IMG/VR virus record: IMGVR_UViG_2671180275_000006
Origin: a virus
Taxonomy: Duplodnaviria > Heunggongvirae > Uroviricota > Caudoviricetes
Strand: one strand, 5' to 3'
Length of the DNA: 58,225 bases
In this document: positions 4,301 through 7,300 of the stretch, piece by piece
How positions within the stretch are numbered: the first letter of the stretch is position 1
Layout of the letters: each line of letters opens with the position of its first letter
Made by a program: the position numbers

Positions 4301-7300
4301 AGATCGGCGTGAAGGCCATCATTGACCAGATCCGCGATGAGGCTGCAAAGTCGCCGGTTGTGTCCGAGCTGCGTAAAGAAATAAAAAACGCGCAGGGGCA
4401 GGCTGTAAAGGATGCTGCAATTAAGACAACCGAAGTTGTGGGGACTCTCAGGGAAGAAACGACAAGAACGATTGGTGGTATTGAAACCCGCATTAGCACA
4501 CTGGATTCATCAACCAGTGAATCGCTTAATGAGGTCGACAAGCGCATCACTAAACTGGATAAAGAAGGCGGTGAGGCGTTTCTGGCAATGTGGTCAAAAA
4601 AAGCGGGAGTTGATGGTATCACTGCGGGGATCGGGATTGTCGCCGGAAAAGACAGTGAAGGTAGGCCTGTAAGTCAGGTTGCAATTTCTGCGTCGCAGTT
4701 GTTTGTCTTTGACCCGAACAACCCGGATAACACCGCCTATCCGTTTGCGGTATCAGGTGGCAAGGTTGTGATCCCGAAAGCGATGATTTATGACGCGGTG
4801 ATTGAAACACTGGTGTCGCGGAAGGTTGTGGCGGATGAGGTAAAAGCCGGGGTAAGTATCACTTCGCCAGTTATCCGGAGTGCCGTTATTCAGAACGGAA
4901 ACTTTCAGGTTGATTCTCAGGGTAACCTGAATATTGGAGGCCTTTTCAGTGTTACGTCACAAGGGCAACTGACAATTCGTTACTCTAATCAGAATGTAGG
5001 ACTGGTGATCCGCAATGATAAAATTGAGGTTTATGATCAGAATGGACGACTGGCTGTTCGCATAGGCAGATTACGCTGATCAGGAGGTGAGTATTGGAAT
5101 ACGGTTTTGCCATTTATAACAGAAATAACGTTAATGTTACGGGCGTGCTGACTCCGGTATTTTTCCTGGACAGATTTACAGCGGAGTCTGGCTCAAAGAC
5201 GTACACGAATAAACCCGACGGGAAATCATTGCAGGCTGTATGTTGTTTATTTCCCTGGAATAACGTATTTGCGGATCGGAAAGTACCGAAGATAACCATT
5301 AATGGCAATACGGTGACGTGGTCGAATCTTGAGCAGGGTATGGGATCTTATATTTATACATTCTGGGGATAAGTGTCATGTATGGTTTGAGCATTATGAA
5401 GCCGGATGGCAGCGTATGGATAAGTCCAGGTTTTACGCCGCAGTGTCTGATCAACAAAGGCACCATACCGGCGACTGAAAAGTCTTTTTTTAAAACATCA
5501 ATCCCGTCAGGCAAAAGTTGTTTTTTCTTTATCAGAACAGAGAAGAAGGCCGATGTCATGTACACGCATGAACAGATTGATGGATATCATGCACTAAGGC
5601 TTCATGTAATTGTCAGGGGAACGAACCCTGGTGTTACGACGGTTTATGCTTTCGCGAATATGGTTACTCCACCTTCTGAGTATGGTATCGCCATGTATAA
5701 CCCGGACGGTGAGATGATTTATCATGGCGAAATGATGCTGCTTGACGCGAAGTTAATACCTGTTGATATCAAATTTGAAAAGGACCTTGGATATCCATGC
5801 GCAATCATGCCTGCACTGGTCGGGTATTATAACTGGAAAAGAACTCCTTATGATCGACCGATTTATACCACATCCACTGGTGCTACAGGAAATAAAATAT
5901 ATTCCTGTGAGCATTATTCCGGCGGTGCAACATGGGATATTCGAAAGCCGTATATAGATAAGGTCCTGGTTATTAATACATCAGTATATGATTAGTTGAA
6001 GCGAGTCTTTAATATTCATTTAAAATGTCTAAAAAGATGTATTATTAAAAAGTTTAGCGTGTTATCTGAATACAGGATATCTTAAATGAAGAGTATAGCA
6101 ACACTGGTTGTGTGTGCAATCTCCGGGATTGCCTGTGTAAATTTATCTGCACATGCAGCAGAAGGAAACCATACAATTTCTCTGGGGTATGCGCACTTTC
6201 AGTTTCCGGGACTGAAGGATTTTGTAAAGGATGCGACTGCTCATAACAGGGAGACTTTCAGTCATTTCGTCAACAGAAACTACTTTTCTTCATTGGGCGA
6301 ATATACAGATGGTCGGGTCAGTGGATATGAAGGCAAGGATAAAAATCCACAGGGCATTAATATCAGGTATCGCTACGAGATAACGGATGATTTTGGCGTT
6401 ATCACCTCTTTTACATGGACGCGTTCTCTCACTAACTCACAGACATTTATTGATGTGCAGTCAGCCGATCATACCAGGAAGATTAAGAATCCGGCAGCTT
6501 CTGCCAGAACGGATATCAGGGCGAATTACTGGAGTCTGTTAGCGGGGCCTTCATGGCGGGTTAATCAGTACATGAGCTTATATGCGATGGCAGGGATGGG
6601 CGTTGCTAAAGTTAGCGCTGACCTGAAAATTAAGGACAATATTAACAGTAGTGGCGGATTTTCTGAAAGCAACAGCACGAAAAAAAACTCCCTTGCGTGG
6701 GCTGCAGGTGCACAGTTTAACCTGAATGAGAGTGTTACACTGGATGTGGCTTACGAAGGTTCCGGCTCTGGCGACTGGCGCACGAGTGGAATTACTGCTG
6801 GCATTGGCCTGAAATTCTAACCTGTATCCGGTAACCGTTTACTACCCGCTGTGATGGCGGGTTTTTTATTGCCCGTACAGGGCAAAAACCGTAAATTATG
6901 CGTGGGTGCCTTTCGGCTGATGGCTGGAGGGTGAACCTGAAGGCCTGATGTGGAAAGGCCCCGAGTCAACTTAACGTTAACCCGAGGCCCTAACACTTTG
7001 TACCTTGACAAGTAGAAGGTTAGCGCCTCTCCACTCAGGAGGCAAGCGCTATGTCGCAAAAATCGCTTATCACCGTCACAATTTGTATGACGGTTATCTT
7101 CACTATCTGGATGTTGCACGGTTCGCTGTGTGAGTTCCGGCTGAATTTGTGGGGAGCGGAGTTTGCGGCGTTCTTACAGTGTAAGCAGTAGGAAAACCGC
7201 GACGGGGACGAAAGTCCCCGTCAACTGGTTGCTGAGGTTCAGCCGATATGGCACCCGTTTCAGGTGAGAGAATGAACGATAAAATTCTCCGGTATATGCA

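What the first reader, a model, noticed from the sequence alone, without database searches (positions are those of the whole stretch)
7051..7222. Unlisted Hok-family toxin gene in prophage A between lom and the virion module
A 46-codon ORF (MSQKSLITVTICMTVIFTIWMLHGSLCEFRLNLWGAEFAAFLQCKQ) with a good RBS aligns position-by-position with Hok toxins (compare hokD at 44307-44462: ICLTVIVTALVTRKDLCEVRIRTGQTEVAVF). A perfect 9-bp stem with GAAA loop follows its stop codon (7201-7222), and hokD has an equivalent stem (ggcgaggga-gaaa-tccctcgcc, 44469-44490). It is below the 60-aa ORF-track cutoff, so it would be missed by length-filtered annotation. The window therefore carries two hok loci, one per prophage.
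Basis: seen in the sequence. Interest (0 to 1): 0.55.

Follow-up and report, generated by a model that had tools for sequence, protein, structure and literature searches.

The report
Second hok/sok toxin–antitoxin locus in Stx prophage
The 46-codon ORF is a real Hok-family membrane-toxin gene inside a complete hok/sok-type RNA-controlled toxin–antitoxin cassette; databases already label it, but its antisense RNA is the RNA published as the phage "microRNA" 24B_1, a link those papers never make.

Summary
ORF 7051-7191 (+) has RBS AGGAGG at 7037-7042 and a perfect 9-bp GAAA hairpin at 7201-7222. It passes Pfam HOK_GEF (33.2 bits, cut-off 22). RefSeq already annotates the exact protein as WP_000078907.1, "Hok/Gef family protein", so the gene is not new.

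The ORF sits in a ~373-nt mobile cassette (6884-7256) with most of the hok mRNA architecture:
- a 5' tac (GGGUGCC) pairing with a 3' fbi (GGCACCC, 7250-7256);
- a sequestered SD;
- a terminal hairpin with compensatory changes;
- an antisense Sok-like RNA (-35 at 7045-7040, -10 TAACCT at 7022-7017, RNA about 7009 to 6946).

The peptide is under purifying selection (dN/dS about 0.22).

This is not hokW-sokW of Sp5. It is a second, uncharacterised hok locus of Stx phages, lying after lom, and also of P2-like prophages, lying after ogr.

The published 20-nt "microRNA-size" 24B_1 of phage Φ24B maps exactly to 6979-6960 (minus strand), inside the Sok-like hairpin, and its predicted promoter is the Sok promoter. 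The published deletion removes the hok promoter, leader and sok. The published "overproduction" plasmid carries the whole cassette.

One departure from canonical hok/sok: no conserved mok frame. Toxicity is untested.

The parts
6844..6870 (+). Intrinsic terminator of lom. It forms the upstream boundary and is not part of the cassette.
   Evidence: The terminator scan finds a stem at 6844-6862 followed by TTTTTTATT. Homology between different phage contexts starts only after it.
6869..6897 (+). Inferred hok promoter: -35 TTGCCC 6869-6874, 17-nt spacer, -10 TAAATT 6892-6897.
   Evidence: A TAnnnT hexamer is kept at this position in most of the 26 aligned homologues while the flanks diverge. It matches 8 of 12 consensus positions, below the scan's 9 of 12 threshold, so it was not reported. 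This promoter is an inference.
6904..7256 (+). Predicted full-length hok mRNA, 353 nt.
   Evidence: BLAST homology at about 80% identity in unrelated prophage contexts spans exactly 6884-7256. The alignment loses all similarity right after GGCACCC. MFE is -148.9 kcal/mol, z -5.77, with the 5' and 3' ends paired. In the alignment 90.9% of cells are paired and 20 pairs carry double changes, matched by 0 of 500 shuffles. The Rfam hok-leader model RF01794 hits 6904-7062 at 40.1 bits, E 1.4e-7, below its gathering score of 59.
6904..6920 (+). tac-like 5' element, GGGUGCC UU UCGGCUGA.
   Evidence: It pairs with 7239-7256 in the MFE fold. Helix 1 is 97.7% paired and helix 2 is 85% paired with 3 pairs changed on both sides. 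In the 3'-truncated RNA it instead pairs with 6952-6962.
6952..6962 (+). ucb-like box GGAAAGGCCCC, the alternative partner of tac.
   Evidence: The RNAalifold consensus pairs alignment columns 1-11 with 50-59 in 23-25 of 25 sequences per pair. The same stem forms in the nascent and truncated folds.
6950..7015 (+). Leader uORF of 21 codons starting at GUG, with an 8-codon ORF from AUG 6948 alongside. This is a possible mok remnant or replacement.
   Evidence: The ORF is listed. The ATG/GTG with upstream GAAGG is nearly invariant, but frame and length vary among homologues. It runs 60-79 codons and overlaps hok in only 6 of 25.
6946..7009 (-). Sok-like antisense RNA: an 18-nt 5' tail, a 16-bp hairpin at 6991-6955, then UUUCC. 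It corresponds to the published 24B_1 precursor.
   Evidence: The minus strand folds at -31.3 kcal/mol, z -6.42. The plus strand of the same stretch gives -15.1, z -1.54. The hairpin is conserved in 25 homologues. The published ~80-nt transcript comes from the same promoter (PMC4426718).
6960..6979 (-). Exact match to the 20-nt 24B_1 RNA (UAACGUUAAGUUGACUCGGG), which forms the loop and 3' arm of the Sok-like hairpin.
   Evidence: HM208303 positions 45711-45692 (PMC4426718) were extracted and found once in the window, at 6960.
7017..7045 (-). Sok-like promoter: -35 TTGCCT at 7045-7040, 17-nt spacer, -10 TAACCT at 7022-7017.
   Evidence: AGGTTA is invariant or nearly so in the 25 homologues. The hokD locus has the same arrangement. 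By my reading of the primers listed, the -10 mutations that abolished sokW in Sp5 hit this hexamer. The Φ24B authors predicted it independently as p24B_1, with -10 CGCTAACCT and -35 TTGACT.
7021..7051 (+). Hairpin that sequesters the hok SD. Anti-SD CCUCUCC at 7026-7032 pairs with SD AGGAGG at 7037-7042.
   Evidence: Seen in the MFE fold. Helix 7 is 99.3% paired. Helix 8 shows compensatory changes, UA 10, UG 10, CG 5.
7051..7191 (+). hok-family toxin CDS, 46 aa. Hydrophobic N-terminal half, an invariant Cys in the LCE motif, and a near-invariant C-terminal Cys44.
   Evidence: Pfam PF01848 scores 33.2 bits against 22. PHROG 251 scores 85.8 bits. PGAP lists it as WP_000078907.1. There are 56 homologues in E. 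coli, Shigella and Salmonella, aligned. Median dN/dS is 0.22, and one pair differs by 6 synonymous and 0 non-synonymous changes.
7053..7067 (+). Start-codon-proximal box. It pairs with 7155-7169 inside the CDS in a long-range, dcb-like lock.
   Evidence: Helix 9 has 13 pairs and is 100% paired in 25 sequences, with only one-sided G-U changes.
7201..7222 (+). Terminal 9-bp GAAA hairpin, proposed as the 3' end protector of the processed, active mRNA.
   Evidence: Fold z is -5.66. It is 99.6% paired, with pairs GC13/AU12, AU13/CG9/GC2 and AU24/GC1. In R1, mutations in the equivalent stem abolish the truncated mRNA (PMC9841398).
7239..7256 (+). fbi-like 3' element, UCAGCCG AUAU GGCACCC.
   Evidence: It is complementary to 6904-6920. 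GGCACCC is invariant, and it is the last conserved base block of the cassette.

Best explanation
Positions 6869-7256 form a hok/sok-type type I toxin-antitoxin cassette carried as a moron by an Stx-phage-like (Traversvirus-type) prophage. A weak promoter makes a ~353-nt mRNA. In this mRNA the 5' end (tac) base-pairs with the 3' end (fbi), the Shine-Dalgarno sequence is buried in a local hairpin, and the start codon is paired with a box inside the coding region, so the full-length RNA is translationally silent. Slow 3' trimming would stop at the stable GAAA hairpin (7201-7222) and remove the fbi. The tac would then switch to an internal partner (6952-6962), and the leader would refold into a translatable form. 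A short, constitutively made antisense RNA, Sok-like and running from about 7009 to 6946, pairs with the leader of that form. This blocks activation and probably marks the duplex for RNase III. When the antisense RNA is lost, for example on prophage induction or loss of the element, the 46-aa hydrophobic peptide is made and inserts into the inner membrane, where Hok-family toxins depolarise or permeabilise the cell. What is shown here: the ORF, family membership, purifying selection, the conserved and covarying RNA helices, the strand-asymmetric antisense hairpin, and identity of the antisense locus with the published 24B_1 precursor. What is inferred: transcript ends, 3' processing, refolding, RNase III involvement, toxicity, and the trigger.
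For: Family membership rests on Pfam HOK_GEF above its gathering score, PHROG 251 and the PGAP annotation of the identical protein. The protein belongs to a 46-aa subfamily in E. coli, Shigella and Salmonella with invariant C27 and conserved GSLCE and AEFAAFLQCK motifs. Median dN/dS is 0.22. The cassette boundaries coincide with the promoter and the fbi in two unrelated phage contexts, after lom in Stx phages and after ogr at the end of P2-like prophages. The mRNA fold closes 5' on 3' with z -5.77. Pair counts on 25 homologues give 90.9% paired and 20 pairs with double changes, matched by 0 of 500 shuffles, while slid controls give 36-43% paired. The hokD locus in the same window shows the same layout. 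The antisense hairpin is stable only on the minus strand and is conserved. The -10 TAACCT is invariant. By my reading of the primers, it is the hexamer whose mutation inactivated sokW in Sp5 (results). An ~80-nt antisense transcript and a 20-nt fragment from exactly this place were detected experimentally in Φ24B (PMC4426718; mapped). That precursor binds Hfq (PMC10732415), as Sok-type regulation in Sp5 partly needs Hfq. In silico, the 3'-truncated RNA switches tac to the internal box and AUG accessibility rises from 0.21 to 0.48. Blocking the Sok target returns it to 0.22.
Against: Toxicity of this 46-aa peptide has never been tested, in the literature I could search. The leader scores below Rfam's gathering score (40.1 against 59). 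The protein scores below the NCBIfam HokA and Hok cut-offs (38.4 against 89, and 22.7 against 73). No mok frame overlapping hok is conserved. [quoted passage not shown] Both promoters fall below the consensus scan's threshold. In the Stx-phage context no terminator follows the fbi, unlike the P2-like and hokD contexts, so the real 3' end is unknown. A high-copy plasmid with the whole cassette did not slow growth (PMC10732415). The published deletion speeded up lytic development, the opposite of the ΔhokW-sokW phenotype.
Confidence: 0.85

Rival explanations
1. The locus is primarily a gene for a trans-acting, microRNA-like small RNA (24B_1). This RNA would regulate d_ant and sdhB and favour lysogeny, and the small ORF opposite it would be incidental.
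For: Published work reports a 20-nt RNA from 6979-6960 and phenotypes of a deletion mutant: less lysogeny and faster induction. A plasmid complements these phenotypes, the plasmid lowers ATP, and the 20-mer binds sdhB mRNA weakly in vitro (PMC4426718, PMC10732415).
Against: The 188-nt deletion corresponds to about window 6853-7039. It also removes the hok promoter, tac, the leader and half of the SD. The complementing or 'overproducing' plasmid insert equals window 6741-7304, the entire hok/sok cassette including the toxin ORF. None of the phenotypes is therefore assigned to the 20-mer itself. The ORF is under purifying selection and belongs to Pfam HOK_GEF. The plus-strand RNA has conserved, covarying long-range structure that a stand-alone sRNA gene would not need. 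A trans role for a Sok fragment in addition to the antitoxin role is not excluded.
Confidence: 0.1
2. It is a decaying or silenced hok locus. The toxin ORF and RNA elements persist, but loss of the mok start makes the toxin untranslatable, as with several chromosomal hok loci of E. coli K-12.
For: No start codon lies at the position homologous to the hokD/hokW mok AUG. The leader ORFs are broken in different ways in most homologues. Individual copies do show decay: L028 lacks the promoter and tac, L063 has a degenerate tac, and L053 has a premature stop. The cassette is tolerated on a high-copy plasmid.
Against: dN/dS is about 0.22 across E. coli and Salmonella lineages, and one pair differs by 6 synonymous and 0 non-synonymous changes. 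The SD-sequestering hairpin, the tac/fbi pairing and the terminal hairpin are maintained with compensatory changes, which would be pointless for a dead gene. The cassette is kept in inducible phages such as Φ24B and Sp5. The hok SD AGGAGG is strong and could be opened by refolding without mok.
Confidence: 0.12
3. It is a chance small ORF with a fortuitous hairpin.
For: The ORF is only 46 codons, and short ORFs abound in the region.
Against: Pfam E is 4e-8. There are 56 homologous proteins. The locus occurs in 1,674 of 5,426 E. coli genomes with the ORF annotated. It shows purifying selection and covariation.
Confidence: 0.01

Closest known systems
hok/sok of plasmid R1 (parB), the reference type I toxin-antitoxin system
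   Same: Both have a small hydrophobic toxin of Pfam PF01848. Both mRNAs carry a 5' tac and 3' fbi fold-back, an internal alternative partner for tac, a sequestered SD, and a terminal stem protecting the 3'-processed RNA. Both have a short antisense RNA with a 5' tail and one hairpin, transcribed from inside the leader (R1 model as summarised in PMC9841398).
   Different: The toxin is 46 aa rather than 52. No conserved mok frame overlaps hok. The leader is below the Rfam RF01794 gathering score. It is carried by phages, not a plasmid. Function is untested.
hokW-sokW of Sakai prophage 5 / VT2-Sakai (Takada et al. 2021, PMC8621323)
   Same: It is carried by the same phage type. It is the same kind of cassette with the same sok -10 hexamer, TAACCT. 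Hfq is involved with the antisense RNA in both.
   Different: It is a different locus. HokW is 51 aa (MKQQKAM...), is hokD-like, and lies at 57437-57825 on the minus strand of NC_000902. The focal type lies at 44469-44910, after lom. The focal protein is 33% identical to the window's hokD-type protein. The hokW type has an upstream AUG that extends the frame (MokW); the focal type does not.
24B_1 'microRNA-size' RNA and its 80/81-nt precursor of phage Φ24B (PMC4426718, PMC10732415)
   Same: The sequence and strand are identical: window 6979-6960 equals HM208303 45711-45692. The promoter is the same (p24B_1 -10 CGCTAACCT). The Φ24B Hok ORF is 100% identical at protein level.
   Different: The literature treats it as a stand-alone trans-acting sRNA and never mentions hok, sok or toxin-antitoxin. 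Here it is read as the antitoxin RNA of the cassette, or a fragment of it.
HokA / hokD (relF) chromosomal hok genes of E. coli
   Same: The best NCBIfam model is HokA. The C-terminal motif EFAAFL.CK with a C-terminal Cys is HokA/HokB-like, from my own knowledge of those sequences. hokD in this window has the same mRNA layout.
   Different: It scores below the HokA equivalog cut-off (38.4 against 89). It is shorter, phage-borne and forms its own 46-aa clade.

Membership tests
Hok/Gef toxin family (Pfam PF01848) | Protein matches the family HMM above the curated gathering score | tested here: met
   33.2 bits against 22, E 4e-8, covering profile positions 6-42 of 42. PHROG 251 scores 85.8 bits.
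Hok/Gef toxin family (Pfam PF01848) | A peptide of about 50 aa with a hydrophobic N-terminal membrane segment and a polar C-terminal part carrying the conserved Cys (LCE motif) | tested here: met
   The protein is 46 aa. Kyte-Doolittle 15-residue means reach 2.25 over residues 5-20 and fall to about 0.3-0.6 in the C-terminal half. C27 is invariant and GSLCE nearly invariant in 28 sequences.
Hok/Gef toxin family (Pfam PF01848) | Expression kills or arrests cells by damaging the inner membrane | not testable with these tools
   I found no experiment on this 46-aa protein. Toxicity is shown only for HokW of the other locus.
NCBIfam HokA equivalog NF007290 / Hok subfamily NF007279 | Score above the curated cut-off | tested here: not met
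   38.4 against 89 and 22.7 against 73. It is therefore not HokA itself but a separate clade of the family.
hok/sok type I TA locus (RNA architecture) | Match to Rfam RF01794 (hok leader / sok region) at the gathering score | tested here: not met
   40.1 bits against 59. The match is full length, model positions 1-157, E 1.4e-7 in a 601-nt search. The hokD locus scores 115.3.
hok/sok type I TA locus (RNA architecture) | 5' tac and 3' fbi long-range pairing that closes the full-length mRNA | tested here: met
   6904-6920 pairs with 7239-7256 in the MFE fold. The helices are 97.7% and 85% paired, the second with 3 double changes. The conserved block ends exactly at the fbi.
hok/sok type I TA locus (RNA architecture) | Alternative tac/ucb stem in the nascent or 3'-processed RNA | tested here: inconclusive
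   It is predicted by RNAalifold and by folding the truncated and nascent RNA. The pairs are nearly invariant, so covariation gives no support either way.
hok/sok type I TA locus (RNA architecture) | Stable terminal stem-loop upstream of the fbi that protects the processed mRNA | tested here: met
   7201-7222 has z -5.66, is 99.6% paired and has 3 compensatory pairs. The functional role is inferred from R1.
hok/sok type I TA locus (RNA architecture) | Cis-antisense Sok RNA with its own promoter inside the leader | tested here: met
   The promoter hexamers are conserved. The hairpin is strand-asymmetric. An antisense transcript from this promoter is reported experimentally under another name (mapped). 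Antitoxin activity itself was not tested.
hok/sok type I TA locus (RNA architecture) | mok reading frame that starts in the Sok target, overlaps hok and is translationally coupled to it | tested here: not met
   In the window the only candidates are an 8-codon ORF (AUG 6948), a 21-codon ORF (GUG 6950, ending 7015) and a TTG at 7005 without an SD. A 60-79-codon frame overlapping hok exists in only 6 of 25 homologues.

The most novel reading that the evidence does not exclude
The RNA promoted as the first functional prokaryotic or phage 'microRNA' (24B_1 of Φ24B) is a fragment of the Sok-type antitoxin RNA of this unrecognised Hok toxin cassette. On this reading, the published phenotypes (lysogeny frequency, induction timing, lowered ATP) were obtained with a deletion that removes the hok promoter, leader and sok, and with a plasmid that carries the whole toxin-antitoxin cassette. 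They may therefore reflect Hok/Sok activity rather than microRNA-like trans regulation. In addition, this subfamily may control hok translation without a mok frame, by Sok blocking an RNA refolding step directly.
Probability: 0.6. Interest if true: 0.6.

Novelty: already known. Interest (0 to 1): 0.4.

Why it matters
As a gene call it changes little. Hok-family genes in prophages are common, and RefSeq already names this one. It matters for three reasons.

1. Stx-converting phages such as Sp5/VT2-Sakai, and Φ24B for at least this locus, carry a second hok/sok cassette beside the studied hokW-sokW. Single-locus knock-outs in those phages may be buffered.
2. The cassette overlaps exactly with the 24B_1 locus. 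The reagents used in a decade of work on a 'phage microRNA' also delete or supply a membrane toxin gene and its control RNA. This offers a simpler and testable explanation, for example for the ATP drop.
3. The subfamily keeps tac, fbi, the SD hairpin and Sok but not mok. That makes it a natural test case for whether mok coupling is dispensable in hok regulation.

Tried and rejected
- I first assumed the locus was hokW-sokW of Sp5. I rejected this because the HokW primers encode MKQQKAM..., and that locus maps to 57437-57825 of NC_000902, not 44469-44910.
- The Rfam gathering-threshold scan found only the hokD leader. The focal leader appears only in the E-value scan.
- The NCBIfam models are all below cut-off.
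- The consensus promoter scan found none, so both promoters rest on conservation and on homology with hokD/sokW.
- A search for a conserved mok in all three frames found none.
- Reading the hairpin as a plus-strand terminator was rejected because no U-run follows it. It does look terminator-like on the minus strand, where nothing obvious needs terminating.
- Literature searches for the peptide sequence and accession found nothing. A search for hok in P2-like prophages gave only an irrelevant hit.
- In one search my label 'GAGGCC 6981-6986' actually covers CCCGAG, since GAGG is at 6984-6987. I do not use that number.
- I did not run structure prediction, fold search or the large representative search. 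A 46-aa membrane peptide with a clear Pfam hit would gain nothing from them.
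Full report
**1. The observation**

The window has an ATG-initiated ORF at 7051-7191 (+) that encodes MSQKSLITVTICMTVIFTIWMLHGSLCEFRLNLWGAEFAAFLQCKQ. AGGAGG lies at 7037-7042, 8 nt upstream of the ATG.

Nine bases after the stop codon comes GACGGGGAC-GAAA-GUCCCCGUC (7201-7222). It folds at -19.7 kcal/mol with z -5.66.

The comparison locus hokD (44307-44462) is real. PGAP calls it hokD, Pfam scores it 82.9 bits, and the Rfam hok-leader model matches 44138-44312 at 115 bits. A motif scan of all six frames finds only these two Hok-like ORFs in the window.

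**2. Family membership**

- Pfam HOK_GEF scores 33.2 bits against a gathering score of 22, E 4e-8.
- PHROG 251, 'MokW-like host killing', scores 85.8 bits.
- The NCBIfam HokA and Hok models match but stay below their cut-offs. The protein is therefore a family member but not HokA.
- A protein search returns 56 relatives. Nearly all are exactly 46 aa, come from E. coli, Shigella and Salmonella, and are named 'Hok/Gef family protein' where a name exists.
- Their alignment keeps M1, Q3, C27, A39 and F41 invariant, and GSLCE and AEFAAFLQCK nearly so. The window's HokD is 33% identical.
- Nei-Gojobori estimates give a median dN/dS of 0.22. One pair differs by 6 synonymous and 0 non-synonymous changes.

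**3. Is it unlisted?**

It is not unlisted in RefSeq. A 440-nt query (6821-7260) matches 1,674 of 5,426 complete E. coli genomes. In every row shown a 'Hok/Gef family protein' is annotated under the match.

The window is identical to NZ_CP075852.1, where the CDS is WP_000078907.1 at exactly these coordinates. Older phage records such as VT2-Sakai NC_000902 and Φ24B HM208303 leave the lom-to-next-gene interval empty.

**4. Context**

Prophage A is an Stx-phage-like (Traversvirus-type) element. Its gene order is tail fibre genes, lom, the cassette, five genes of mostly unknown function, then an LPD38-domain giant protein.

In the phage collection the interval is 87-99.8% identical in about 190 Stx-converting phages.

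At about 80% identity the match shrinks to query positions 64-436, which is window 6884-7256. In those genomes the block sits in a different place: right after ogr, at the end of P2-like prophages next to the host junction. In that setting a canonical terminator follows it 25-35 nt downstream.

So a ~373-nt unit moves as a cassette. Its left edge is a promoter and its right edge is the sequence GGCACCC.

**5. The plus-strand RNA**

I aligned 25 non-redundant cassettes from viral and genome contigs.

- Similarity begins at a TAnnnT hexamer (window TAAATT, 6892-6897, with TTGCCC 17 nt upstream).
- It continues through GGGUGCC at 6904.
- It stops dead after GGCACCC at 7250-7256.

Folded alone, 6904-7256 gives -148.9 kcal/mol, z -5.77, with the 5' 17 nt paired to the 3' 18 nt. 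This is the tac/fbi fold-back that defines hok mRNAs (R1 model as summarised in PMC9841398).

Counting this structure on the alignment gives the following:

- 90.9% of cells are paired, against 36-43% when partners are slid.
- 20 pairs have changes on both sides, matched by 0 of 500 shuffles.
- The outer tac/fbi helix is 97.7% paired. The next helix is 85% paired with 3 double changes.
- The hairpin burying the SD (7021-7051) is kept with UA, UG and CG alternatives.
- A 13-bp helix joins the start-codon region (7053-7067) to 7155-7169 inside the CDS. It is 100% paired.

The hairpin is followed by AACUGG, not a U-run, and lies 27 nt upstream of the fbi. In R1, breaking the equivalent stem abolishes the processed mRNA. 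I therefore read it as the 3' protector of the processed, active RNA and not as a terminator.

RNAalifold on the same alignment prefers the alternative pairing of tac with GGAAAGGCCCC (6952-6962). That stem also forms in the nascent and 3'-truncated RNAs. It matches the tac/ucb switch of R1, although the pairs hardly vary, so covariation is silent.

The hokD locus in this window folds the same way, with z -7.80.

**6. The antisense RNA**

On the minus strand, TTGCCT (7045-7040), a 17-nt spacer and TAACCT (7022-7017) reproduce the arrangement at hokD. AGGTTA is invariant or nearly so across the 25 cassettes.

For sokW of Sp5, promoter mutations abolished antitoxin activity. By my reading of the mutagenic primers, they change this very hexamer.

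An RNA starting near 7009 would have an 18-nt tail, a 16-bp hairpin (6991-6955) and UUUCC. It folds at -31.3 kcal/mol, z -6.42. The same stretch on the plus strand reaches only -15.1, z -1.54. The asymmetry comes from G-U pairs and points to selection on the minus-strand transcript. The hairpin is kept in all 25 homologues.

**7. It is not hokW-sokW**

I expected the published Sp5 system. The HokW primers encode MKQQKAM... and HokW is 51 aa, so it is the hokD type. A search with the window's hokD locus places it at 57437-57825 (minus strand) of NC_000902. The focal type is at 44469-44910 of the same phage.

VT2-Sakai therefore has two hok loci, and only one has been studied as a toxin-antitoxin system.

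**8. The link to 24B_1**

From memory I recalled a 'microRNA-size' RNA mapped between lom and vb_24B_43 of Φ24B. The papers confirm this.

- 24B_1 is HM208303 45711-45692. It is cut from an ~80-nt transcript whose predicted promoter has -10 CGCTAACCT and -35 TTGACT (PMC4426718).
- I extracted that record and found the 20-mer once in the window, at 6960-6979 on the minus strand. It covers the loop and 3' arm of the Sok-like hairpin.
- The Φ24B ORF encodes the identical 46-aa protein.
- The Δ24B_1 deletion (188 nt by my mapping, 189 in the paper) corresponds to about window 6853-7039. It removes the lom terminator's 3' half, the hok promoter, tac, the whole antisense gene with its -10, the anti-SD and half of the SD.
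- The primers of the complementing or 'overproduction' plasmid pUC18_24B1 map to 6741-6760 and 7285-7304. The insert is therefore the entire cassette, including the toxin ORF.
- The 2015 paper, the 2023 follow-up and a 2025 review contain no occurrence of 'hok' or 'sok'. A 2017 review by the same group describes Hok/Sok and 24B_1 in separate sections without connecting them.
- No other paper in the library combines the terms meaningfully.
- The 2023 finding that Hfq binds the precursor but not the 20-mer parallels the partial Hfq dependence of sokW.
- The reported ATP drop with the plasmid is what a leaky Hok-type membrane toxin could cause. That last point is an inference from general knowledge of Hok toxins, not a result.

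**9. What does not fit**

Canonical hok translation depends on mok. At the position homologous to the hokD/hokW upstream AUG, 9 nt after GAGG, the focal subfamily has no start codon.

An almost invariant AUG/GUG (6948/6950) preceded by GAAGG opens leader ORFs. Their frame and end vary with indels in the Sok loop:

- 8 and 21 codons in the window, the latter ending at 7015, 36 nt before the hok AUG;
- 17-24 codons in most P2-type copies;
- a 60-79-codon frame overlapping hok in only 6 of 25.

Three readings are possible. Coupling may be replaced by direct refolding. In silico, the truncated RNA raises AUG accessibility from 0.21 to 0.48, and blocking the Sok target brings it back to 0.22, but this is weak evidence. 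A short leader ORF ending just upstream of the SD hairpin may suffice. Or many copies may be poorly translatable.

Other points against full activity:

- The leader and protein score below the curated Rfam and NCBIfam thresholds.
- The promoter hexamers are weak.
- No terminator follows the fbi in the Stx-phage context.
- The cassette is tolerated on pUC18.
- The deletion phenotype runs opposite to ΔhokW-sokW.

**10. Verdict**

This is a Hok-family toxin gene within a hok/sok-type cassette, and it is the second such cassette in the window.

As an annotation it is already known, since RefSeq and PHROGs both carry it. As biology it is an uncharacterised, HokA-like 46-aa subfamily that lacks a conserved mok. 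Its antisense RNA has been studied for a decade under a different interpretation.

I put 0.85 on the cassette reading. I put about 0.6 on the stronger claim that the published 24B_1 phenotypes stem largely from Hok/Sok.

Noticed in passing
window 22830-22915 (-) and 23366-23450 (-): Two Rfam sRNA-Xcc1 matches (74.5 and 53 bits) lie immediately 5' of the two antirepressor (Ant/AntA-AntB) genes on the minus strand, at the end of prophage A next to the truncated ynfG. They look like a repeated leader element of ant genes.
   Followed up: no
window 7248-7274: The PGAP start of the gene after hok (ATG 7248) overlaps the fbi GGCACCC (7250-7256). The PHROG 610 profile begins at residue 9 of that protein, so the true start is probably ATG 7272, preceded by GGUGAGAG.
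   Followed up: partly
window 7200-7223 (-): Read on the minus strand, the same hairpin is followed by CGGTTTTCCT, and the scan scores it as terminator-like. Nothing annotated on that strand needs it.
   Followed up: no
L007, L008, L009, L060, L093, L094 (about 25-35 nt after GGCACCC): In P2-like prophages the cassette is followed by an intrinsic terminator, CCCGCAGCGTAAAAACTGCGGGTTTTCTTTTT. The Stx-phage copies lack it and run straight into the next gene, so read-through or co-transcription is possible there.
   Followed up: partly
L093 4168-4308; L094 4169-4309: The commonest E. coli variant of the cassette (about 80-84% identity, over 1,000 genomes) sits directly after ogr at the end of P2-like prophages, beside the host junction (tRNA genes in one case, serS in the other). 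This is a classic moron position.
   Followed up: partly
L005, L006, L008: Cassette copies turn up in assemblies labelled Xanthomonas pisi (an 857-bp contig, 100% identical), a Planococcaceae MAG and Vagococcus sp. These are almost certainly enterobacterial contaminant contigs.
   Followed up: no
L028, L063, L053: Some copies are decayed. In L028 the promoter and tac are replaced by unrelated sequence. In L063 the tac is degenerate (GGACACC). In L053 the last codon has changed from CAG to TAG.
   Followed up: no
window 44250-44462 (+): At the hokD locus an upstream ATG (44250) is in frame with hokD and gives a 70-aa extended ORF (MLDTCRLASYVPKGKEKQA+HokD). This is the 'MokW'-type frame that phage annotations name. 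Here mok is therefore an N-terminal extension rather than an out-of-frame overlap as in R1.
   Followed up: partly
window 18961-23760: After the LPD38 giant gene, the prophage continues with minus-strand early-left-type genes (DUF551, Ea22-like, TraR/DksA, Ant) and several pseudogenes, with no integrase before the truncated ynfG. This suggests a composite or rearranged prophage end.
   Followed up: no
window 38882-38933 (-), 47607-48030 (+), 50508-50893 (+): DicF RNA and two cspA-type thermoregulator leaders (cspB and another csp gene) mark prophage B as Qin-like.
   Followed up: no
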